Shown: piece after piece, positions 3,177-11,081 of the stretch
Position numbering within the stretch: position 1 is the first letter of the stretch
How the letters are laid out: each line of letters begins with the position of its first letter
Source of the DNA: a virus
Strand: one strand, 5' to 3'
Length of the DNA: 18,811 nucleotides
UHGV virus genome: UHGV-0168127
The notes under the pieces: generated by a model
The model's database searches: none
The model's input: only the letters and a program-made list of their open reading frames with translations
What the model was told of the DNA's origin: nothing
Translations under genes and position numbers: made by a program

Positions 3177-3337
3177 TTCTTCCCACTCCGCAACATCGCA
3201 TTCAGATATTTGTTTTGATTCACTGATGGAAAATAATTTCTCTTTAGCAATTCCTCTCTCGATGGCATTGGCTTTACGCGTTGGCGAATAATCATTTCTG
3301 CCGGAAGAATGCCGGGATTGTATGCAAGACCTCTCAT
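3173..3337 (-). CDS. Hypothetical small protein (54 aa)
   Basis: Manual [57 protein letters not shown]; AAAGAGGAA RBS; its stop overlaps the start of the Ea22-like gene (ATGA). Confidence 0.3.
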
Positions 3338-3353
3338 GGTAAATTCCTCTTTG

Positions 3354-3668
3354 TTAATTTATTCGTATGCCTGCTCTTTCTTCATCGAGTTTTTTTAGCT
3401 TGTATCGCATAGCTCTTACTGAATAAATTGAGCGGCAGGTTGCAATTGCTATTTCTTCTGCAGAGAACTTACCGAAAAGTGATACTTCGGCTCTTGTCCA
3501 TCGTCTTCCACGAAGTCGGCTAACAATGTCAGCTCCAATCCTTGTTGCTTTCGCCATTACTGCTTTTTCAGTCCTTTCCAGTTTTTCAGCGATAACTTCA
3601 ACTGGCATTGTTGCCGCTACTTCTCGCAAGAAATCGACTTCCCATTTCTCCCAAGGAGTCTTTTTCAT
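3354..3668 (-). CDS. Hypothetical protein (104 aa), possibly DNA-binding
   Basis: Track ORF with a two-fold internal repeat around conserved Trp/Arg positions; no confident family assignment. Confidence 0.4.
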
Positions 3669-3679
3669 AGGCGATACCG

Positions 3680-4168
3680 TTATTTGATAAGAAGTGAAGG
3701 TTTCCCAACTTTGAGTTGAGCGCCGGGGATATTTATTCCTGCTTTTAGTTGGTGTTTGATTGCCAGTTTGTCGGCTTTAATTGTCGTTTCAAACTCAACG
3801 TATTCAGGAGGAATGGCGCTTGCGTCGATGATTTCTACAATTTCTGACGGTTTGCGGATTGTTACCTGGTGAATACCTGCTCGAATATTTTTCTTGCCAA
3901 CCATTTCAAGCGATGACGCTATATATGATTTGATGCTGTCAATCTTATTTTGGATTACTGCGGCTCGCTCATTCAGTGACTTTGCCTCTTCCTTGAGGCG
4001 TTCAGCATAACCAGATTCATTTTTAATAATGGCAAGAAGTTGCTCTATTTTATCGGTAAATTCTCCTTCCATGCCTTCTATTGTGTCAGCAATCATCTCT
4101 GGTTCTAAATCTGAATCCATCAATTTTGCGTATTCATTGGCAATTTCATACAGTTTGCTCACTGGCAA
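3680..4168 (-). CDS. Siphovirus Gp157-family protein (162 aa)
   Basis: Length and acidic N-terminal helix followed by a K-rich coiled coil match the Gp157 family; overlaps and is co-oriented with the RecT gene as in other RecT modules. Confidence 0.65.
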   Translation of the reverse strand: MPVSKLYEIANEYAKLMDSDLEPEMIADTIEGMEGEFTDKIEQLLAIIKNESGYAERLKEEAKSLNERAAVIQNKIDSIKSYIASSLEMVGKKNIRAGIHQVTIRKPSEIVEIIDASAIPPEYVEFETTIKADKLAIKHQLKAGINIPGAQLKVGKPSLLIK

Positions 4169-5057
4169 CCTCCAGTTTCGCTTTGCATTCTATGTAAATG
4201 GCTTGTACGTTCTGCTGCAATTTCATTCCAGATGTCAGGCGATATGCTTCTGCAAAATATCGCTTCAAATCATCCATGTTTTCTGCCTGAGCCATTTCAT
4301 CGCAAAGAAGTTGTGCTTTATCCATTATTTCCTGCTGGCGTTTCCGTTCATCTTCGCGGATATCTTCCTCTGATTTGTGCGGCATAACTGGTTCGGTCCA
4401 CACGCCTTCTTCTTCGTTTAGTACGTGAATAGCACTATCAAGGCGTGATGCCTTAGGCCAATACTTGCTTGCACGCTTTACGACTGTCTTTCGCGCCATC
4501 TCATTCCAGTGATTTACCCATGGTCCTTTATCGCTGAATGCCGCCTTGCTTGTTTTCCTTACAGCCTCAATTTCAGCCAGACTCATCTCTTCCGTTAGAT
4601 AATCACCTGCTGGCGTCTTAACTGTGCAGTAAACGCCAACGATATCACCACGGTCACCGAAGGCGTTGTATTTATGGGTTGGTGCTTTATCAAGCCCGTT
4701 TGACTCATAGGTATCGTTAGCATGAACAAGTTTTGCCTGACCCCATGAGATAACACCAGACTCCATTGCAATATGGAGCAATCCCATATAGCTGATATCA
4801 AGGCACACCATGCCGTCGCGAGGAACCAGATAAGCCAGTTTGCTGGCCGGGTTTAAGGTGATGCCGATCGCCGCAACATTGATGATGGCGTTCTGTGCGC
4901 TGGTTGGATTTGCCAGTGCTGTTTTAGCCAGGTAATCGTTTTTCTGGAAATACTGAATTGCAAACTGGCTTTCCTTAGCCCATGTCACCGTCTGTTCAGT
5001 CAATGCTCCGCAGAATAACTGCTCCTGCTGTTTAACGAATTCAACGATATTGCTCAT
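4146..5057 (-). CDS. recT: RecT-family single-strand annealing recombinase (303 aa)
   Basis: GPWVNHWNEMARKTVVKRASKYWP closely resembles the conserved RecT segment GPWVTHWEEMAKKTAIRRLFKYLP; gene sits where lambda has bet. Confidence 0.8.
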   Translation of the reverse strand: MSNIVEFVKQQEQLFCGALTEQTVTWAKESQFAIQYFQKNDYLAKTALANPTSAQNAIINVAAIGITLNPASKLAYLVPRDGMVCLDISYMGLLHIAMESGVISWGQAKLVHANDTYESNGLDKAPTHKYNAFGDRGDIVGVYCTVKTPAGDYLTEEMSLAEIEAVRKTSKAAFSDKGPWVNHWNEMARKTVVKRASKYWPKASRLDSAIHVLNEEEGVWTEPVMPHKSEEDIREDERKRQQEIMDKAQLLCDEMAQAENMDDLKRYFAEAYRLTSGMKLQQNVQAIYIECKAKLEVASEQTV

Positions 5058-5365
5058 GCAGCTTCTCCAAAAATGTGTCTGCGTTTGAATATTGCGAAGG
5101 CATATTCAGCCTTAACTCTTTCGGTTATTGCATCCCAGAACCATTCAGCGGCTTTTTCCTGATAGTTACAGTCATCATCTTCCAGCCAGTCGATAGCGTC
5201 CTTAGTGTGTTCATCTGGTTTATATGAGCGAAGCATTTCGCTTATTGGGTCGCAACGTTTGCAGAGGCGATCAACTTCACTGTTGATTCGTTCGTAATCT
5301 TCATCAGTAAAACTTGCGATTATTTGCGATATTTCACGCTTATCATTCAGAGTCAGAATCATCAT
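5054..5365 (-). CDS. Hypothetical acidic protein (103 aa) at the gam position
   Basis: Start overlaps the small-ORF cluster upstream and its stop overlaps the recT start (ATGA); acidic C-terminal half; no family recognised. Confidence 0.45.
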   Translation of the reverse strand: MMILTLNDKREISQIIASFTDEDYERINSEVDRLCKRCDPISEMLRSYKPDEHTKDAIDWLEDDDCNYQEKAAEWFWDAITERVKAEYAFAIFKRRHIFGEAA

Positions 5366-5446
5366 CTTTCTCCTGTTCTTTGTGCTGATTGAGCATTTTG
5401 TTCATCTGACGAATGAATTCTTCGTCTGACCAGTTATCTGTAAAAC

Positions 5447-5599
5447 TCATTTCCTGCGATACCACGGAAGGTTGATAGCTGATTTCATCGCTTTATTTGC
5501 TTCAAGCCACATTTTTGAATCACCAATAAATCGGGCTATTACTGCTTTGTTCTGTGCTGCACGAAGCATCTGGTGATTGATGGCTATTTCATTGCGCAT
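5447..5599 (-). CDS. kil: Kil-like small protein (50 aa), putative host cell-division inhibitor
   Basis: Manual ORF MRNEIAINHQMLRAAQNKAVIARFIGDSKMWLEANKAMKSAINLPWYRRK; overlaps the 3' end of cIII as kil does in lambda; the IA.FIGD..M segment matches my recollection of lambda Kil (TIATFIGDEKMF). Confidence 0.45.
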   Translation of the reverse strand: MRNEIAINHQMLRAAQNKAVIARFIGDSKMWLEANKAMKSAINLPWYRRK

Positions 5600-5715
5600 A
5601 ATAAGACCTCAACTCTTTTCCATCCGTCACGTAATTTACGGGTGATTCGTTCAAGTAAAGATTCATTTAGTTGGAAGGCACCCATGCGAGCGCCTCCCGC
5701 GATTGCGTAAATCAT
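5584..5715 (-). CDS. cIII: CIII-like protein (43 aa), putative FtsH inhibitor
   Basis: Manual ORF MIYAIAGGARMGAFQLNESLLERITRKLRDGWKRVEVLLCAMK with AAGGAA RBS; ESLLERITRKLRDGWKR matches the conserved core of lambda CIII as I recall it. Confidence 0.65.
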   Translation of the reverse strand: MIYAIAGGARMGAFQLNESLLERITRKLRDGWKRVEVLLCAMK

Positions 5716-5739
5716 GGGTGGTTCCTTATGTTGGTTTTA

Positions 5740-6741
5740 TTAGTAGGTTATTTTTGTTGCGAATACTTCGCCTTTTACGATGGCTGTTATGATATTTTTA
5801 GCAACATCTTCTGATGCGCCAACCTTGATAAGGTCAGCAAGTATTTTGTTATTTACTTCTTTCCGGTGAGCTTTATCCTTTGCTCTACGCTCTTCTTCGT
5901 CCTTGATTCTTTTTTCTTCTGCTATTCTGGCTTGCTCTTTTGCTTCAGCCTCGCGCAGGATTCGTTCTGCCTCCTCCTGTGCTTTACGGCGTTCTGCTTC
6001 AATTGCCGCATGCTTTTCTCTTTCAGCTCGTTCTGCTGCCTCTTTTGCTTCGCGCTGTGCTCGTTGCTCGGCTTCAATGCGTTCACGCTCTGCACGTTCC
6101 GCTGCGGCCTTAGCTTCTGCTTCACGGCGCGCTGCGGCTTCAATCTCTGCTTTGTGCTTCGCTTCGGCATCGCGTCGGGCTTGCTCTGCCGCTTCACTCT
6201 TAATGCGCTCTTCATGCTCACGTTGAGCCTGTTCCGCCTGGCGGCGCTGCTCTTCGCGGTCACGGTCGAAATCCTTGTTCATCAGCAGAGCCATTTCGTG
6301 GTCTGCTTCGAACTTGGCCGCCAACTCCTGATCGAACTTGATGTTCATTTCCAGCGCTTCGGCGTGCAACGCGTTCATGGCTTCTTCAGCCTTAATGCGC
6401 TCCTGCTCGGCTTCCCATTCGGTGAGTGGGCGGCGGGTGGCATCACGTAGCTCGTCGCAGGCATCAACGAAACGCTTAATTTCCGCCTCAGCGGGGCGCA
6501 CAGCCTCTTTCAGGCGCTTCAGGTACTCACGCCCCGGCTTTTCGATTGCCGTCTTGCTGCGCGACACCTGCGCCGCCAGAGAGGCGACACGGTCACGGCC
6601 TTTCTTCGTTGACAGGTCCGGCACTTCGTTTACTGCCTGGCGGATTTGCTCGAGGTAAGCGTCAAGGCCGCCCGCTACGTAAAGCGCTGGCGCCTGCTCC
6701 GGCGTGATTTCGATGACAGTTAAGTCCATTACTTCGCTCAT
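5740..6741 (-). CDS. Coiled-coil protein (about 333 aa) with a long E/A/R/K-rich repetitive C-terminal half
   Basis: Track ORF 5740..6849 trimmed to the ATG at 6741 (AGGAGA RBS), because the upstream part is occupied by another small gene; low-complexity charged repeats generate the many shadow ORFs on both strands in 5866..6658. Confidence 0.55.
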   Translation of the reverse strand: MSEVMDLTVIEITPEQAPALYVAGGLDAYLEQIRQAVNEVPDLSTKKGRDRVASLAAQVSRSKTAIEKPGREYLKRLKEAVRPAEAEIKRFVDACDELRDATRRPLTEWEAEQERIKAEEAMNALHAEALEMNIKFDQELAAKFEADHEMALLMNKDFDRDREEQRRQAEQAQREHEERIKSEAAEQARRDAEAKHKAEIEAAARREAEAKAAAERAERERIEAEQRAQREAKEAAERAEREKHAAIEAERRKAQEEAERILREAEAKEQARIAEEKRIKDEEERRAKDKAHRKEVNNKILADLIKVGASEDVAKNIITAIVKGEVFATKITY

Positions 6742-6811
6742 GGTTTCTCCTGAAATTTGGATGTGCAGATCCCGCCCGCTTTTAGCCAGGCCGATCGGTT
6801 GAATAGGGGAA

Positions 6812-6952
6812 TTAGGCTGTTTTTCTATGCCACGGATAACCGATGGCAACCTTCATTTCGTCGTAGGCTGCCATCCACATGGCGCCATCACCGATAAACA
6901 GGGCAATGGCTGCTTTGCTCTGCGCGGCGCGCAGCAGGTGATGATTGATCAT
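6812..6952 (-). CDS. Kil-like paralog (46 aa)
   Basis: Manual ORF MINHHLLRAAQSKAAIALFIGDGAMWMAAYDEMKVAIGYPWHRKTA; start overlaps the upstream stop (ATGA); clearly paralogous to the ORF at 5447..5599. Confidence 0.4.
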   Translation of the reverse strand: MINHHLLRAAQSKAAIALFIGDGAMWMAAYDEMKVAIGYPWHRKTA

Positions 6953-7107
6953 ACCTTCACCTCAACCTGTTCCAGGAGGCCAGCGATATTCATCTGTTGG
7001 CGGTTCAGCGTCAGCTTGTCGCGCGGTGCCGATACCGACGTCAGCTGCCACTCGTTATCGTTGAGCTTTTTGTCGGTGTACTGCTTGCCGTTGTGGGTGA
7101 CTGTCAT
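6949..7107 (-). CDS. Hypothetical small protein (52 aa)
   Basis: Track ORF 6949..7149 trimmed to the ATG at 7107, which has an AGGTGG RBS. Confidence 0.35.
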   Translation of the reverse strand: MTVTHNGKQYTDKKLNDNEWQLTSVSAPRDKLTLNRQQMNIAGLLEQVEVKV

Positions 7108-7108
7108 C

Positions 7109-7318
7109 TCACACCACCTTGAATAAGAACCAGACCATACCGCACACAATCAGGCCCACAATGGTTATTGCGGAAGACATGCGTACATGGTCAATGGCTA
7201 GTTTTGAAATTGGCTGGCGATGTTCTTTTTTCGTCAGCGAGTTGATTGCTATGCCGAGCAGAAACGTCCCGACAAACCATAATGCGTATATCTTTAAGCC
7301 CAACTCCAAATCACTCAT
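7109..7318 (-). CDS. Small membrane protein (69 aa, two predicted transmembrane helices)
   Basis: Two hydrophobic stretches (IYALWFVGTFLLGIAI and AITIVGLIVCGMVWFLF) separated by a basic loop. Confidence 0.45.
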   Translation of the reverse strand: MSDLELGLKIYALWFVGTFLLGIAINSLTKKEHRQPISKLAIDHVRMSSAITIVGLIVCGMVWFLFKVV

Positions 7319-7453
7319 AAATCCTCTTGGCCTTATCGCGGCGAACGGAACGGTTAATACAAGACTTCAACGCATTTATTCAGTGTTTCAATGGGCGGTG
7401 GATGGCCGCCGGTTGTCATAACTAAGCCGCCTCGGTGAAGCGACTGAGGTATG

Positions 7454-7475
7454 AAAAAACCCGCCGTGGCGGGTC
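7454..7475 (-). terminator. Intrinsic terminator inside the leftward operon
   Basis: On the - strand GACCCGCC-AC-GGCGGGT hairpin directly followed by TTTTTTCAT, immediately after the stop of the 7477..7797 gene. Confidence 0.45.
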
Positions 7476-7476
7476 T

Positions 7477-7797
7477 TCAGAAATAGTCTTTATGGTCGTG
7501 CATCGCTTGCTGGAGGATCACCTTTGCATCTTCAAAGCTGGCAGATTCAAAAGCCTCTCTTATGGCCTTAGCCAGGCAAGTCGCATCGCTTTCATAGTCA
7601 TCAGCTCTGCTTTCCCAGTTTGATGCCTCTTCTTCAGCCTCATAAAGGCGATCGCCATACTCGCACTCGAGTTCCTGGCGCACTTCATCGCGAAGCTTCT
7701 CCTTGATGATTTCGGAGGCTTCTTCAATCGGCATTGTTTCCAGAATCGTCTCTGGCTGATGAGTGCCGTATTTCAGTGAGATGTCAGTAGCAAACAT
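7477..7797 (-). CDS. Hypothetical highly acidic protein (106 aa)
   Basis: Track ORF trimmed to the ATG at 7797 (GGAGGT RBS); roughly 30% Asp/Glu. Confidence 0.45.
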   Translation of the reverse strand: MFATDISLKYGTHQPETILETMPIEEASEIIKEKLRDEVRQELECEYGDRLYEAEEEASNWESRADDYESDATCLAKAIREAFESASFEDAKVILQQAMHDHKDYF

Positions 7798-7806
7798 GCA
7801 ACCTCC

Positions 7807-7835
7807 AAAAAAATTGCCCTCACACTGGAGGGCAA
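7807..7835 (-). terminator. Terminator-like hairpin plus T-run just upstream of the acidic-protein gene
   Basis: On the - strand TTGCCCTC-CAGTGT-GAGGGCAA (8-bp stem) followed by TTTTTTT. Confidence 0.35.
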
Positions 7836-7928
7836 AGAAGATTTCCAATAATCAGAACAAGTCGGCTCCTGTTTAGTTACGAGCGACATTGCTCCGTGTA
7901 TTCACTCGTTGGAATGAATACACAGTGC

Positions 7929-8141
7929 TTATTCGCGAGCTTTGAGCATGGCATCAGCAATAAAGTAGGCATCATCTGCTAATTCTTTGTACTGTGGTGA
8001 ATTCTGTCCACCACCAAAGGAATGTCCGTCCCATCTGCGCACTATTGCTGCCATAGCCTTAGCAGCGAAGTAATCACGTAATGTCGCATCACTTGCCATT
8101 TCTGGGCGTTTGATATCTTCTTCATAAAACTCGCACATCAT
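7929..8141 (-). CDS. Hypothetical protein (70 aa)
   Basis: Track ORF; its start overlaps the stop of the upstream gene. Confidence 0.4.
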   Translation of the reverse strand: MMCEFYEEDIKRPEMASDATLRDYFAAKAMAAIVRRWDGHSFGGGQNSPQYKELADDAYFIADAMLKARE

Positions 8142-8422
8142 TCACCTCCCAGAGCCTTGCTGATTGCTGCCTTGGCTCGTTTGTATTCGGTTAACTCTCT
8201 GCACCCTTCGTCATGCTCGTAAAGGAAGACAAGCTCTTGCAGTGCTTCAAGCAAATCAGGAGCTGCTGCTATCAGTAGCGCATCCTCCCTTTCATTTCTT
8301 GTTGCTGCTTCAATGTATGTGTCACCAATCGTCACACCATGGAACGTAGTCATCATCTCGTTGACGTTTCTAACCGTGTACTTCCATTTACCAGGCGTAC
8401 CCTTAAACTCTTTCATATCCAC
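8138..8422 (-). CDS. Hypothetical protein (94 aa)
   Basis: Track ORF; overlaps the downstream gene start by 4 nt. Confidence 0.4.
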   Translation of the reverse strand: MDMKEFKGTPGKWKYTVRNVNEMMTTFHGVTIGDTYIEAATRNEREDALLIAAAPDLLEALQELVFLYEHDEGCRELTEYKRAKAAISKALGGE

Positions 8423-8463
8423 CTCTGTTGTTTATGCCAAAAATAAAGGCCGACTATTCGGCC

Positions 8464-8631
8464 TTAAAATCCTGAATATTCGCGAAGAGATTCGATAATT
8501 TCCTCGCAGTCGATAAGTAGTTCGTCAGGTTCATCTTCTCGATTTTTAAGTGCCTCAATGTTCCCAGCTAACTGGCGAAGCATCATTGCTTGCCATTCAG
8601 GGTCGAAGCTGTCTGGTATTTCAATTTCCAT
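8464..8631 (-). CDS. Hypothetical acidic small protein (55 aa)
   Basis: Manual ORF MEIEIPDSFDPEWQAMMLRQLAGNIEALKNREDEPDELLIDCEEIIESLREYSGF with GAGGTG RBS; missed by the track (below 60 aa). Confidence 0.35.
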   Translation of the reverse strand: MEIEIPDSFDPEWQAMMLRQLAGNIEALKNREDEPDELLIDCEEIIESLREYSGF

Positions 8632-8693
8632 ATTTCACCTCAAATAAGTGGTTTGCTGCCAAAACAATGAACCATCAGGAAATTCCAGATAGT

Positions 8694-8918
8694 TCATAAT
8701 TCACTCTTCAATACTTCCAACTTACTAATCGCCGATAGATATCCGCGCTGATAGGGCATCATCATTCCTTCGAGCTTGCCACTTCTTAACTCCTCCCTGA
8801 GCAATTGTATTGCTTGATCAATAACCTCTGCCTTAGCGTCCTTTATGGCTTGCTTGCGGGGCTTTGCTTTCTGCTTTGGCAGATTTCTCAAGCATGATGG
8901 AATGTATGTCTGAGTCAT
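8694..8918 (-). CDS. First gene of the leftward operon: small basic protein (74 aa), candidate N-analogous antiterminator, function unproven
   Basis: AAGAGGA RBS upstream of the ATG at 8918; K/R-rich N-terminal stretch (LRNLPKQKAKPRKQAIKDAK); first ORF downstream of the OL region. No similarity to lambda or P22 N that I can recognise. Confidence 0.35.
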   Translation of the reverse strand: MTQTYIPSCLRNLPKQKAKPRKQAIKDAKAEVIDQAIQLLREELRSGKLEGMMMPYQRGYLSAISKLEVLKSEL

Positions 8919-9240
8919 AAAAAATCCTCTTGTGATTCAGCCCAGCCCACTCAACTTCGAATGGACTGGAATAAATCTGTTTGCGCTTCGCACCTCTCAT
9001 CCCGCCAGTGTTGCCCGTTCCCACGCCTTTATCGCTCTCGCGAGGGGGTAGCCTCACACCGACCGGATCGCGCCCGGTGCTGCGCCGAATTTGTACGTTG
9101 GGGTCTAAACAGGATTACTGAGTGCTGTTCCGACTTTGCATGTTGTTAAAAAGCAGGCGACTTGCTGTCCGCCGCTGGCTAACTTCGCTCAGCTGTCGAT
9201 GTTTCGTTTCGATGGATTGATAATAGCGATGAGTATTGTT

Positions 9241-9282
9241 TATAGCAATACGTATTGATATTAAATAATAGCAATTGCTATT
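9241..9282. promoter_or_regulatory. OL-like operator cluster (pL region)
   Basis: Perfect palindromes CAATACGTATTG (9246..9257) and AATAGCAATTGCTATT (9267..9282), built from the same half-sites as the operators between cI and cro. Confidence 0.5.
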
Positions 9283-9393
9283 AATGCGTTGATAGCTAAA
9301 GGAATTTATTTGGATATTTTTTCGCGGGATTGAGATTCAGATCGTTTTTTTACTGCGGCGGGTATTGCTGTGACGAATGGGCTGGCTGCGGGC

Positions 9394-9420
9394 AATAAAA
9401 AACCCAGCACTATGGCTGGG
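9394..9420 (-). terminator. Intrinsic terminator downstream of cI
   Basis: On the - strand CCCAGC-CATAGT-GCTGGG perfect hairpin followed by TTTTTTATT, about 22 nt after the cI stop. Confidence 0.55.
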
Positions 9421-9441
9421 CTTGATTCATAGCTGGGTTTG

Positions 9442-10146
9442 TTAACCGTGTTTTCTGTATGTCTGAGGCATGCTACCAATCACCTTGCCGAATATGAGTA
9501 TCCTGTTCATTTCTTCTTTTTCGATTGGCTCCCACGGGCGATAAGTCTGATTGTCGGAGATGACCAACAGCTTATCTTTCATCTTCTGGAGGCGTTTAAC
9601 GTGGGAAGTATCGTCGTAGATAAAGGCGTAGATCCCGTCACCATCAAAATGTTGGACGCTGATGTCGACGAACAATAAGTCGCCTGGTTCAATGGTCCCG
9701 GACATGCTGTCTCCGCGAACATTAATGATTCTGATCTGCTCAGCCTTCCTGCCATTAAACATCCGACGAGCATCTTCCACTGAGTATTCCACGGATCTAA
9801 GCACCTCTACAAATTCGCTGTTGATGGCTCCTGGCCCGGCGCTTACGTAAAAGTCTAGCGCCTCAATGCGGAATGTGTCAGTAGGGGCCAGCTCTGTTTT
9901 CGGCTGCGAAATTGCGGGCATTTGACCATCTTCACGCATTGGGCCAACTCCGGTTGAAAGCCACTCAGTGCGAACGCCAAGCGCATTGGCGATCTCAACG
10001 ATTTTAGTTGAGCCTCGGGCATTGCCACTGGTCAGCCTCCAGATGGTGGGTTGAGCAACGCCAGACGCCTTAGCTAAAGCGCCCTGAGACATGCCAGATA
10101 GTTCCATCGCCTGATTCAGGCGTTCTGCAAGAGTTTCTTTTTTCAT
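9442..10146 (-). CDS. cI: CI-type repressor: N-terminal HTH plus C-terminal S24 (LexA-like) autopeptidase domain
   Basis: Track ORF trimmed to the ATG at 10146 (MKKETLAERL...); HTH segment MSQGALAKASGVAQPTIWRL; GDSM and KRL motifs consistent with a Ser/Lys catalytic dyad; divergent from the cro-like gene across an operator region. Confidence 0.85.
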   Translation of the reverse strand: MKKETLAERLNQAMELSGMSQGALAKASGVAQPTIWRLTSGNARGSTKIVEIANALGVRTEWLSTGVGPMREDGQMPAISQPKTELAPTDTFRIEALDFYVSAGPGAINSEFVEVLRSVEYSVEDARRMFNGRKAEQIRIINVRGDSMSGTIEPGDLLFVDISVQHFDGDGIYAFIYDDTSHVKRLQKMKDKLLVISDNQTYRPWEPIEKEEMNRILIFGKVIGSMPQTYRKHG

Positions 10147-10154
10147 GAGTTTTA

Positions 10155-10226
10155 ATTTATACGCTTGCGTATTGATGGTCAAAACACGTTTAGCTATTGC
10201 CTAAATCAATACGCATTGCTATTATC
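10155..10226. promoter_or_regulatory. OR-like operator and divergent promoter region (candidate pRM leftward and pR rightward)
   Basis: Palindrome ATACGCTTGCGTAT (10159..10172) and a related site near 10207..10226. Rightward promoter candidate: -35 TTGCCT (10197..10202), 17-nt spacer, -10 TATTAT (10220..10225). Leftward candidate: -35 TTGACC (complement of 10177..10182), -10 ATAAAT (complement of 10155..10160), placing the start at or near the cI ATG (leaderless, as for lambda pRM). Confidence 0.5.
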
Positions 10227-10257
10227 AATTCACACCAATACTCATAGGAATTGGAAG

Positions 10258-10485
10258 ATGACGAACAAAACAATCCAGCGCGCCATTGATATCGCTGGTA
10301 GCCAGAAGAAATTAGCCGACCTTTGCGGCGTTGCTCAGCCGACGGTATGGCGCTGGTTGCACGGCGGCGGCATTGATGCCCGCTACGTAATGAAGATTGT
10401 CACTGCAACAAACGGCAAGCTAAAACCAGCAGATATCCGTCCAGACCTCGCCCAGCTGCTTGAGGCGAATAACACAGCCGCTTAA
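10258..10485 (+). CDS. cro: Cro-like HTH regulator (75 aa)
   Basis: Track ORF 10165..10485 trimmed to the ATG at 10258; HTH segment SQKKLADLCGVAQPTVWRWLHG; divergent from cI. Confidence 0.6.
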   Translation: MTNKTIQRAIDIAGSQKKLADLCGVAQPTVWRWLHGGGIDARYVMKIVTATNGKLKPADIRPDLAQLLEANNTAA

Positions 10486-10514
10486 TTGCGGCCCTAACCA
10501 CGAAAGGGAAAGCA

Positions 10515-11081
10515 ATGCATTCACTTGCGTATCAACAGAGTACCGGACTTGAACAACGTCCGTTGATTTCGATTTATCAAAGTGTTCCGCGTAATAACCG
10601 TAAGCTAATTCGAATACGGGATGCAGTTAAGGCCTGGCAAAAAGCTACGCCGGGCCAGTCTCAGGTTCACATTTCTCAGCTGGTTGCGAAAGAGTGGCTG
10701 GCGCGCGGCGGGAAGGGGTTGTTACTGGCAGGTTCTGAACACAACACGAAGCAGAACTTCTTCCGGATGATTAACGATCCGGGCCCGAAGAACGACAAGG
10801 GGTTGATGCTACTGATCCCCGTCATTATCGACGTGATGGCGCGGGATAACGAGAAAGTGGCGAGAGAGTTCGGTCTGGTCGCAAAGACTGAGGCCGAACT
10901 GATAGCCGAGGCCATGAAAGAGTGCACTGAAGCGCATCAGGCGAAGTTACTTGGTCAGCCGATACAACGCCTTGAGAAAGAGGTGAGAGAAGCTGCTGAA
11001 GCACTTCTGCGCTTTCTGCCCACTGAATCAATCGCCGCGGTGGTGACAAGTCTGGCCGCTATGGCGCCGGGAGTTATGTGA
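10515..11081 (+). CDS. Early regulator at the cII position (188 aa), possibly YdaT/CII-like; function unassigned
   Basis: Immediately follows cro in the rightward operon; far larger than lambda CII; no motif I can assign with confidence. Confidence 0.4.
   Translation: MHSLAYQQSTGLEQRPLISIYQSVPRNNRKLIRIRDAVKAWQKATPGQSQVHISQLVAKEWLARGGKGLLLAGSEHNTKQNFFRMINDPGPKNDKGLMLLIPVIIDVMARDNEKVAREFGLVAKTEAELIAEAMKECTEAHQAKLLGQPIQRLEKEVREAAEALLRFLPTESIAAVVTSLAAMAPGVM

What the first reader, a model, noticed from the sequence alone, without database searches (positions are those of the whole stretch)
5447..6952. cIII and two Kil-like paralogs in one operon
A CIII-like ORF (5584..5715) is followed by an overlapping Kil-like ORF (5447..5599), mirroring lambda cIII-kil. 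A second Kil-like paralog (6812..6952), sharing the LRAAQ.KA.IA.FIGD..MW core, lies about 1.2 kb upstream before the coiled-coil gene. Duplicated putative cell-division inhibitors are unusual and all three ORFs are below 60 aa, so are easy to miss.
Basis: partly seen in the sequence, partly recalled or inferred. Interest (0 to 1): 0.5.

Follow-up and report, generated by a model that had tools for sequence, protein, structure and literature searches.

The report
Prophage operon with two Kil genes
This is the early-left operon of an E. coli lambda-like prophage that carries the known lysogeny factor CIII and two different, already catalogued versions of the small cell-division blocker Kil; the pairing is rare, came from phage-phage recombination, and is a minor curiosity rather than a new kind of system.

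Summary
Kil1 (5447-5599) and Kil2 (6812-6952) both pass Pfam's Lambda_Kil cut-off. CIII (5584-5715) passes Lambda_CIII and overlaps Kil1 as in lambda.

None of the three is new. Kil1 is identical to phage HK022 Kil. Kil2 is identical to a Kil that NCBI names in Enterobacter prophages. CIII is identical to an E. coli prophage CIII.

The two Kil genes are not a local duplication. They share 58-60% of residues and 64% of bases, and each belongs to a separate phage lineage. Kil2 fills the slot where phi80 and an E. coli G3/10 prophage carry the unrelated FtsZ inhibitor KilR, and the exchange runs from codon 4 to the stop codon.

Two Pfam-type Kil genes together are rare: none of 64 phage records, none of 80 Kil1 viral contigs, one of 80 Kil2 viral contigs with a different layout, and about ten contigs with this exact arrangement.

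Most likely both peptides block FtsZ-ring assembly redundantly during early lytic transcription. That function is inferred, not tested. Interest is low to moderate.

The parts
5447..5599 (-). kil1: 50-aa Kil peptide, identical to phage HK022 Kil. It sits in the canonical position, overlapping the 3' end of cIII by 16 nt.
   Evidence: PF06301 72.6 bits. PHROG 2055. The exact sequence is UniProt VKIL_BPHK0 and NCBI 'host cell division inhibitory peptide Kil [E. coli]'. AF2 predicts a helical hairpin, H9-25 and H28-41, with a G-D turn, pLDDT 84. GAGG lies 8-11 nt before the ATG.
5584..5715 (-). cIII: 43-aa CIII lysogeny factor, a presumed FtsH inhibitor.
   Evidence: PF02061 56 bits. PHROG 550. 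24/35 identical to lambda CIII, including the core ESLLERITRKLRDGWKR. The exact sequence is named 'protease FtsH-inhibitory lysogeny factor CIII [E. coli]'.
5740..6741 (-). 333-aa Glu/Ala/Arg/Lys-rich coiled-coil gene, variously annotated elsewhere as 'TolA', 'hypothetical' or phi80 'agt'. This hybrid gene is where the two parental operon types join.
   Evidence: PHROG 1376 E=6e-110. Positions 5001-6303 match phage Louie (HK022/Sf6-type) at 94.6%. Positions 5980-7107 match Enterobacter-type prophage L006 at 88.9%. The exact protein is WP_195466225.1 [E. coli], found on only about 10 contigs.
6812..6952 (-). kil2: 46-aa Kil peptide of the Enterobacter-prophage type. It occupies the slot that holds KilR in phi80 and in the E. 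coli G3/10 prophage.
   Evidence: PF06301 42.2 bits. PHROG 2055. The exact sequence is 'MULTISPECIES: host cell division inhibitory peptide Kil [Enterobacteriaceae]'. It is the sole Kil in its usual context. At least 10 DNA alleles with only silent changes encode the same peptide. AF2 predicts H4-20 and H23-37, pLDDT 87. The cassette boundaries are shown.
6949..7107 (-). 52-aa ORF of unknown function. Its stop overlaps the kil2 start (ATGA), consistent with translational coupling, and it always precedes this slot.
   Evidence: PHROG 6396. Called as a gene upstream of Kil2 in all loci L006-L021. Conserved upstream of KilR in phi80 and G3/10.
5343..5450 (-). 35-aa acidic ORF coupled to the kil1 stop (ATGA overlap). 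Function unknown.
   Evidence: Called as a gene in L017-L021. PHROG 17766. Sequence.

Best explanation
The region is part of the leftward early operon of a lambdoid prophage of E. coli.

It carries the standard cIII-kil pair. CIII is a small inhibitor of the FtsH protease that favours lysogeny. Kil is a two-helix peptide that blocks FtsZ-ring assembly. Here the Kil of this pair is identical to that of phage HK022.

About 1.2 kb upstream lies a second Kil of a different lineage. That version is normally the only Kil of Enterobacter-type, phi80-like prophages, which show no recognisable cIII.

The pair arose by mosaic recombination between two operon architectures, not by local duplication. The architectures share the coiled-coil gene and differ in where the division inhibitor sits.

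- Slot A lies upstream of the coiled-coil gene and holds either KilR or an Enterobacter-type Kil.
- Slot B lies after cIII and holds a lambda-, HK629- or HK022-type Kil.

On derepression, both peptides would be made from one transcript. Both would transiently stop host division through FtsZ, probably with ZipA. Their action would be redundant or additive.

What is shown: gene identities, gene order, mosaic origin, rarity, and persistence of the block in several prophage backgrounds. What is inferred: expression, FtsZ/ZipA targeting by either peptide, and redundancy.
For: - Family membership is above the curated cut-offs for all three ORFs, with concordant PHROGs.
- All three are identical to named proteins.
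- The Kil copies share only 58% of residues and 64% of bases.
- The left part of the region matches E. coli HK022/Sf6-type phages. The right part matches Enterobacter-type prophages. The two matches overlap inside the coiled-coil gene.
- phi80 and E. coli G3/10 are collinear with the window on both sides of Kil2 but carry a KilR-family gene there (NCBIfam PRK11354, 117 bits). Homology ends after ATG-ATC-AAy-CA and resumes right after the stop codon.
- In 10 of 10 native loci and 78 of 80 viral contigs, Kil2-type is the only Kil and no cIII is detected.
- The dual block 3189-7461 recurs at 99.3-100% identity with at least three different immunity regions, and both ORFs are intact each time.
- Both peptides are predicted as helix-GD turn-helix. 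This matches the helix-turn-helix core shown to be essential for lambda Kil, and a 37-aa HK629 Kil was shown to act in a ZipA-dependent way (PMC11762379; PMC3961180).
Against: - No expression or phenotype data exist for either peptide of this window.
- As far as the papers I read show, neither HK022-type nor Enterobacter-type Kil has been tested experimentally. They share only 50-57% identity with lambda Kil over about 30 residues.
- The dual-Kil contigs are near-identical to each other, so the arrangement is recent. Their similarity says little about selection for keeping both copies.
- The silent-only variation in Kil2 was seen in loci retrieved by exact protein identity, so it is biased towards that result.
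Confidence: 0.75

Rival explanations
1. The two Kil peptides are functionally differentiated. One is tuned to E. coli FtsZ/ZipA and the other to Enterobacter. Alternatively, they have different partner proteins, as KilR also acts on MreB. Carrying both would broaden host range or produce a stronger or two-pronged block.
For: - The two alleles come from phage lineages associated with different genera.
- Slot A elsewhere holds KilR, which has a second target, MreB (PMC12482147).
- A KilR plus Kil combination exists in E. coli G3/10.
- A second, different two-Kil layout exists in L097.
Against: - No data show different specificities.
- All dual arrangements are very rare. KilR+cIII+Kil is in 1 of 5426 E. 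coli genomes at DNA level, and dual Kil is in 1 of 160 sampled viral contigs. This argues against a strong general advantage.
Confidence: 0.15
2. The second copy is a local tandem or segmental duplication of kil1 that has since diverged, making the two true paralogs born in this operon.
For: They belong to the same family, lie on the same strand, are 1.2 kb apart, and share a motif.
Against: - The copies are only 64% identical in bases.
- Each copy is identical or nearly so to a widespread allele of a separate lineage that occurs alone.
- The flanks of Kil2 are homologous to phi80 and Enterobacter prophages, not to the kil1 flanks.
Confidence: 0.03
3. Kil2 is a chance ORF, or it is not expressed, and only the cIII-kil1 pair is real.
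For: It is only 46 aa. A 99-aa antisense ORF overlaps it.
Against: - The Pfam score is above the cut-off.
- The exact peptide is indexed in 2805 blocks of the collection and is named by NCBI.
- Several DNA alleles carry only silent changes.
- A GAGGTGAAGG ribosome-binding site precedes it, and its start overlaps the upstream gene's stop as ATGA.
- AF2 gives a confident helical hairpin.
Confidence: 0.03
4. Division-inhibitor slots are swapped and doubled under pressure from host defences that sense particular inhibitor-FtsZ complexes. A second, different inhibitor would serve as a back-up or as an evasion device.
For: - The CapRel system of Enterobacter senses the T7 Gp0.4-FtsZ complex (PMC13423816).
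- Slot A shows a precise exchange of non-homologous inhibitors.
Against: - In that study lambda Kil and Rac KilR did not activate the defence.
- No defence is known to sense Kil.
- Cassette exchange at gene boundaries is general in lambdoid phages. That last point rests on established knowledge, not on a test here.
Confidence: 0.04

Closest known systems
Phage lambda cIII-kil pair in the pL operon (Kil: ZipA-dependent FtsZ inhibitor; CIII: FtsH inhibitor)
   Same: - The same two Pfam families are present.
- Gene order is the same, cIII followed by an overlapping kil.
- The location is the same, in the early-left operon upstream of the recombination genes.
- The predicted helix-GD-helix core is conserved.
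   Different: - Kil1 is the 50-aa HK022 allele and shares 17/30 residues with lambda Kil.
- CIII is shorter, 43 versus 54 aa.
- Lambda has one Kil, and this operon has a second one 1.2 kb upstream.
Phage HK022 / HK97 / Sf6 / CUS-3 early-left operon
   Same: Kil1 is identical to HK022 Kil. The segment 5001-6303 is about 95-96% identical to these phages.
   Different: Those phages have nothing Kil-like upstream of the coiled-coil gene. Every phage record has a single Kil place.
Enterobacter-type phi80-like prophages (52-aa ORF, Kil, 323-aa coiled-coil protein, GamL, RecT, exonuclease)
   Same: They carry the identical Kil2 peptide, with the same upstream ORF and the same N-terminal part of the coiled-coil gene.
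   Different: There Kil2 is the only Kil and no cIII is detectable.
Phage phi80 'kil' and Rac prophage KilR (NCBIfam PRK11354, an FtsZ and MreB inhibitor)
   Same: It occupies exactly the same slot as Kil2, with the same flanks and even the same first four codons, M-I-N-H. It has the same broad role as a division inhibitor (PMC12482147).
   Different: The protein is unrelated, and Kil2 does not match PRK11354. KilR acts independently of ZipA and also hits MreB.
E. coli G3/10 prophage (KilR-type, coiled-coil gene, cIII, 37-aa HK629-type Kil)
   Same: It has the same two-slot architecture with both slots filled. It is about 94% identical to the window from cIII to upstream of slot A.
   Different: The inhibitors come from two different families (KilR plus Kil) rather than being two Kil peptides. 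This combination is found in 1 of 5426 complete E. coli genomes at DNA level.

Membership tests
Lambda_Kil (Pfam PF06301) | Profile score above Pfam's gathering threshold (27.6 bits) | tested here: met
   Kil1 scores 72.6 bits and Kil2 42.2 bits. Both also match PHROG 2055 'Kil protein for bacterial septation inhibition'.
Lambda_Kil (Pfam PF06301) | Helix-turn-helix hairpin core with a Gly-Asp turn, shown to be essential in lambda Kil (PMC11762379) | tested here: met
   The FIGD motif is conserved in both. AF2 predicts Kil2 as H4-20, turn at 21-22, H23-37, pLDDT 87. It predicts Kil1 as H9-25, turn at 26-27, H28-41, pLDDT 84. These are predictions only.
Lambda_Kil (Pfam PF06301) | Canonical position immediately after, and overlapping, cIII in the early-left operon | tested here: met
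   Met for Kil1, with a 16-nt overlap. Not met for Kil2, which lies upstream of the coiled-coil gene in the slot used by KilR in phi80. Kil2-type genes normally occur without cIII.
Lambda_Kil (Pfam PF06301) | Blocks FtsZ-ring assembly and cell division in a ZipA-dependent way | not testable with these tools
   This has been shown only for lambda Kil and HK629 Kil (PMC3961180; PMC11762379). It is inferred here by homology.
Lambda_CIII (Pfam PF02061) | Profile score above the gathering threshold (25.7 bits) and the conserved central amphipathic segment | tested here: met
   The score is 56 bits. ESLLERITRKLRDGWKR is identical to lambda CIII.
Lambda_CIII (Pfam PF02061) | Inhibits the FtsH protease and stabilises CII | not testable with these tools
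   Inferred from homology. The operon's CII-like gene (10515..11081) is of the YdaT/PHROG 163 type, so the relevant FtsH substrate here is uncertain.
KilR / PRK11354 FtsZ inhibitor (Rac, phi80) | Sequence match to the NCBIfam model | tested here: not met
   phi80 'Kil' scores 117 bits. Kil1 and Kil2 give no NCBIfam hit. Kil2 only shares the slot and the first four codons.

The most novel reading that the evidence does not exclude
Lambdoid early-left operons have two independent, exchangeable slots for division inhibitors. Rare phages that fill both, with two Kil alleles here and KilR plus Kil in G3/10, would gain something. The gain could be activity on the FtsZ/ZipA of more than one host genus, a two-target block, or insurance against host resistance to, or sensing of, one inhibitor. 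On this reading the pairing is adaptive rather than an accident of recombination.
Probability: 0.12. Interest if true: 0.5.

Novelty: new variant of a known kind. Interest (0 to 1): 0.25.

Why it matters
It matters only modestly. Each gene is already known and already annotated. The one point of interest is architectural. Unrelated (KilR) and related (Kil) FtsZ inhibitors are exchanged as precise cassettes at one slot, and a few recombinant prophages carry two inhibitors at once.

This provides natural pairs of Kil alleles, about 58% identical, in one genetic background. Such pairs could be used to map which residues determine FtsZ/ZipA targeting. They could also be used to ask whether phages benefit from redundant division blocks.

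Tried and rejected
- **Local duplication.** Rejected on base identity and on the lineage of each copy.
- **Taking phi80's annotated 'kil' as a homologue of Kil2.** Rejected. It is a KilR-family protein, unrelated in sequence.
- **Curated RNA elements.** The Rfam scan of the whole window found none.
- **NCBIfam.** It has no model that hits Kil or CIII peptides of this size, so that library is uninformative for them.
- **Species-representative genome scan with a Kil alignment.** It returned only 11 loci, all with a single Kil. That is too few for a frequency estimate, so viral contigs were used instead.
- **Single-protein locus search with Kil2.** An alignment was used in its place.
- **Literature searches.** They found no description of two Kil genes in one phage.
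- **Host genus from the window itself.** The window is all prophage DNA, so the host could not be read from it. It was inferred as E. coli from the source names of the exact hybrid protein.

Full report
**Observation**

The three small ORFs exist on the minus strand exactly as described.

- Kil1, 5447..5599, 50 aa: Pfam Lambda_Kil (PF06301) 72.6 bits against a cut-off of 27.6.
- Kil2, 6812..6952, 46 aa: 42.2 bits on the same model.
- CIII, 5584..5715, 43 aa: Lambda_CIII (PF02061) 56 bits against a cut-off of 25.7.

PHROGs agree: family 2055, 'Kil protein for bacterial septation inhibition', for both Kil peptides, and family 550 for CIII.

Direct BLASTP comparisons give:

- Kil1 versus lambda Kil: 17/30 identical.
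- Kil2 versus lambda Kil: 14/28 identical.
- CIII versus lambda CIII: 24/35 identical, including the unbroken core ESLLERITRKLRDGWKR.
- Kil1 versus Kil2: 26/43 identical.

cIII and kil1 overlap by 16 nt, as cIII and kil do in lambda (32 nt). Each ORF has a Shine-Dalgarno-like sequence. The kil2 start overlaps the stop of the upstream 52-aa ORF as ATGA.

**Context**

The window is the early region of a lambdoid prophage.

- A CI-like repressor lies at 9442..10182 on the minus strand.
- Cro-like and YdaT/CII-like genes run rightward from about 10165.
- A long, tightly packed leftward operon runs through kil2, a 333-aa coiled-coil gene (5740..6741), cIII, kil1, a RecT recombinase (4146..5057) and a Mu-Gam-like gene.

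No terminator-like hairpin was found on the minus strand between 7814 and 5447. Co-transcription of the two kil genes is therefore plausible, but it is not demonstrated.

**All three peptides are already catalogued**

- Kil1 is identical to HK022 Kil (UniProt VKIL_BPHK0).
- Kil2 is identical to 'MULTISPECIES: host cell division inhibitory peptide Kil [Enterobacteriaceae]', found mostly in Enterobacter.
- CIII is identical to 'protease FtsH-inhibitory lysogeny factor CIII [Escherichia coli]'.

Each of the three is recorded on at least 1000 contigs. The statement that such ORFs are easy to miss is true in principle. In practice current pipelines name them.

**Origin of the pair**

The two kil genes share only 64% of bases over 45 aligned codons. 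The surrounding DNA is a mosaic.

- Window 5001-6303 (kil1, cIII and the C-terminal part of the coiled-coil gene) matches E. coli phages of the HK022/Sf6/Louie type at about 95%.
- Window 5980-7107 (the rest of the coiled-coil gene, kil2 and the 52-aa ORF) matches Enterobacter-type prophages at about 89%.

In ten native loci that carry the exact Kil2, it is the only Kil and no cIII is detectable. There the downstream genes are typically the coiled-coil gene followed by recombination genes such as GamL, RecT and an exonuclease.

Phage phi80 and a prophage of E. coli G3/10 are collinear with the window on both sides of kil2. In precisely that place they carry a 69-aa protein of the KilR family (NCBIfam PRK11354, 117 bits). 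KilR is unrelated to lambda Kil (PMC12482147).

The DNA alignment shows that all four sequences share the upstream gene, the ribosome-binding site and the first codons, ATG-ATC-AAy-CA (M-I-N-H). They then diverge completely. In the window, L006 and G3/10, homology resumes directly after the stop codon. This is a gene-for-gene cassette exchange.

G3/10 also differs at the second slot, where a 37-aa HK629-type Kil follows cIII. I therefore describe two slots.

- Slot A lies upstream of the coiled-coil gene. It is empty, or holds KilR, or holds an Enterobacter-type Kil.
- Slot B lies after cIII. It holds a lambda-, HK629- or HK022-type Kil.

The window has both slots filled with Kil-family alleles.

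**How unusual it is**

- In 50,697 phage records, 64 have a Kil2-like match, and each has exactly one place.
- Of 80 viral contigs with a Kil2-type gene, 78 have a single Kil and no cIII, one has Kil plus cIII, and one (L097) has two Kil genes.
- In L097 the layout is different. Both copies lie upstream of the coiled-coil gene, separated by 192-aa and 86-aa ORFs.
- Of 80 viral contigs with the exact Kil1, none has a second Kil or a KilR within 4 kb.
- Kil2 DNA occurs in 2 of 5426 complete E. coli genomes, and is the sole Kil in the one examined.
- The KilR+cIII+Kil combination of G3/10 occurs in 1 of 5426 genomes at DNA level.
- The exact hybrid coiled-coil protein of the window is on about ten contigs, against 2805 index blocks for Kil2 alone.

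Every one of those hybrid contigs that reaches far enough carries kil2, cIII and kil1, all intact. They include at least three different repressor and immunity regions. One of them (L018) shares only the block 3189-7461, at 99.3%. The block has therefore moved between prophage backgrounds, but it is young.

**Mechanism, inferred**

Lambda Kil blocks Z-ring assembly in a ZipA-dependent way (PMC3961180). Its predicted core is essential: helix 1 at residues 4-18, a G19-D20 turn, and helix 2 at residues 21-38. A divergent 37-aa HK629 Kil works in the same way (PMC11762379).

Both peptides of the window keep the FIGD turn and are predicted as two-helix hairpins with good confidence.

The most likely reading is that both are active FtsZ inhibitors made together early after derepression. 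They would act redundantly or additively, while CIII inhibits FtsH.

Evidence that kil2 is a real gene includes several DNA alleles with only silent changes encoding the same peptide. That comparison is biased, because the loci were retrieved by exact protein identity.

**Alternatives**

- Functional differentiation between the two alleles, such as host-genus tuning or a second target as in KilR, cannot be excluded. Nothing here supports it directly.
- Local duplication and a spurious ORF are both contradicted by the data above.
- A defence-evasion reading is speculative. In the one relevant study, lambda Kil and Rac KilR did not trigger the FtsZ-sensing CapRel system (PMC13423816).

**Verdict**

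The observation and its family assignments are correct, and the pairing is rare. Every component is known, and the arrangement is explained by ordinary lambdoid mosaicism. It is a new architectural variant of a known operon and is of low to moderate interest.

Noticed in passing
window 6808-6942; L001 5080-5289; L002 4696-4905: There is a precise cassette exchange between an unrelated KilR-family gene (phi80, E. coli G3/10) and the Kil-family kil2. The ribosome-binding site and the first four codons (M-I-N-H) are shared, and homology resumes right after the stop codon.
   Followed up: yes
L097 2648-2836 and 4001-4135 (IMGVR_UViG_2924896205_000007): This is an independent, different two-Kil layout. 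Both Kil-like ORFs lie upstream of the coiled-coil gene and are separated by 192-aa and 86-aa ORFs. The first copy (MTINHKLLIQAQQKARAARQNGDG...) is more divergent.
   Followed up: partly
L002 4696-4905 (NZ_CP060075.1, WP_000607101.1) and hits H27-H30: RefSeq names the 69-aa KilR-family FtsZ inhibitor 'cell division protein FtsZ'. This is a misleading product name that has been propagated over many E. coli genomes.
   Followed up: partly
window 5866-6450 (+), 5903-6226 (+), 5922-6263 (-): Long ORFs of 107-194 aa overlap the coiled-coil gene in other frames and on the other strand. They look like by-products of its repetitive Glu/Ala/Arg/Lys-rich coding sequence, not genes.
   Followed up: no
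window 7797-10600: PHROGs did not recognise an N-type antiterminator among the ORFs scanned between the repressor and kil2. The immunity region is of the Rac/YdaS-YdaT type. Terminator-like hairpins lie on the minus strand at 8465-8446 and 7835-7814, so how early-left transcription reaches the kil genes is unclear.
   Followed up: partly
L024 (MAG 'Actinomycetes bacterium') and L025 (MAG 'Oxalobacter sp.'); P0010 ('Enterococcus faecium'): Short contigs in metagenome-assembled genomes of unrelated phyla carry the exact E. coli HK022-type cIII-kil pair. A fragment of the coiled-coil protein is filed under Enterococcus. These probably reflect binning or contamination errors in public records.
   Followed up: no
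window 5740-6741 vs L001 3160-4128 (phi80 agt): The coiled-coil gene is partly homologous to phi80 'agt', annotated as an antitoxin for GamL. The window has no GamL and instead carries a Mu-Gam-like gene at 3680-4168. The role of the coiled-coil protein here is therefore open.
   Followed up: no
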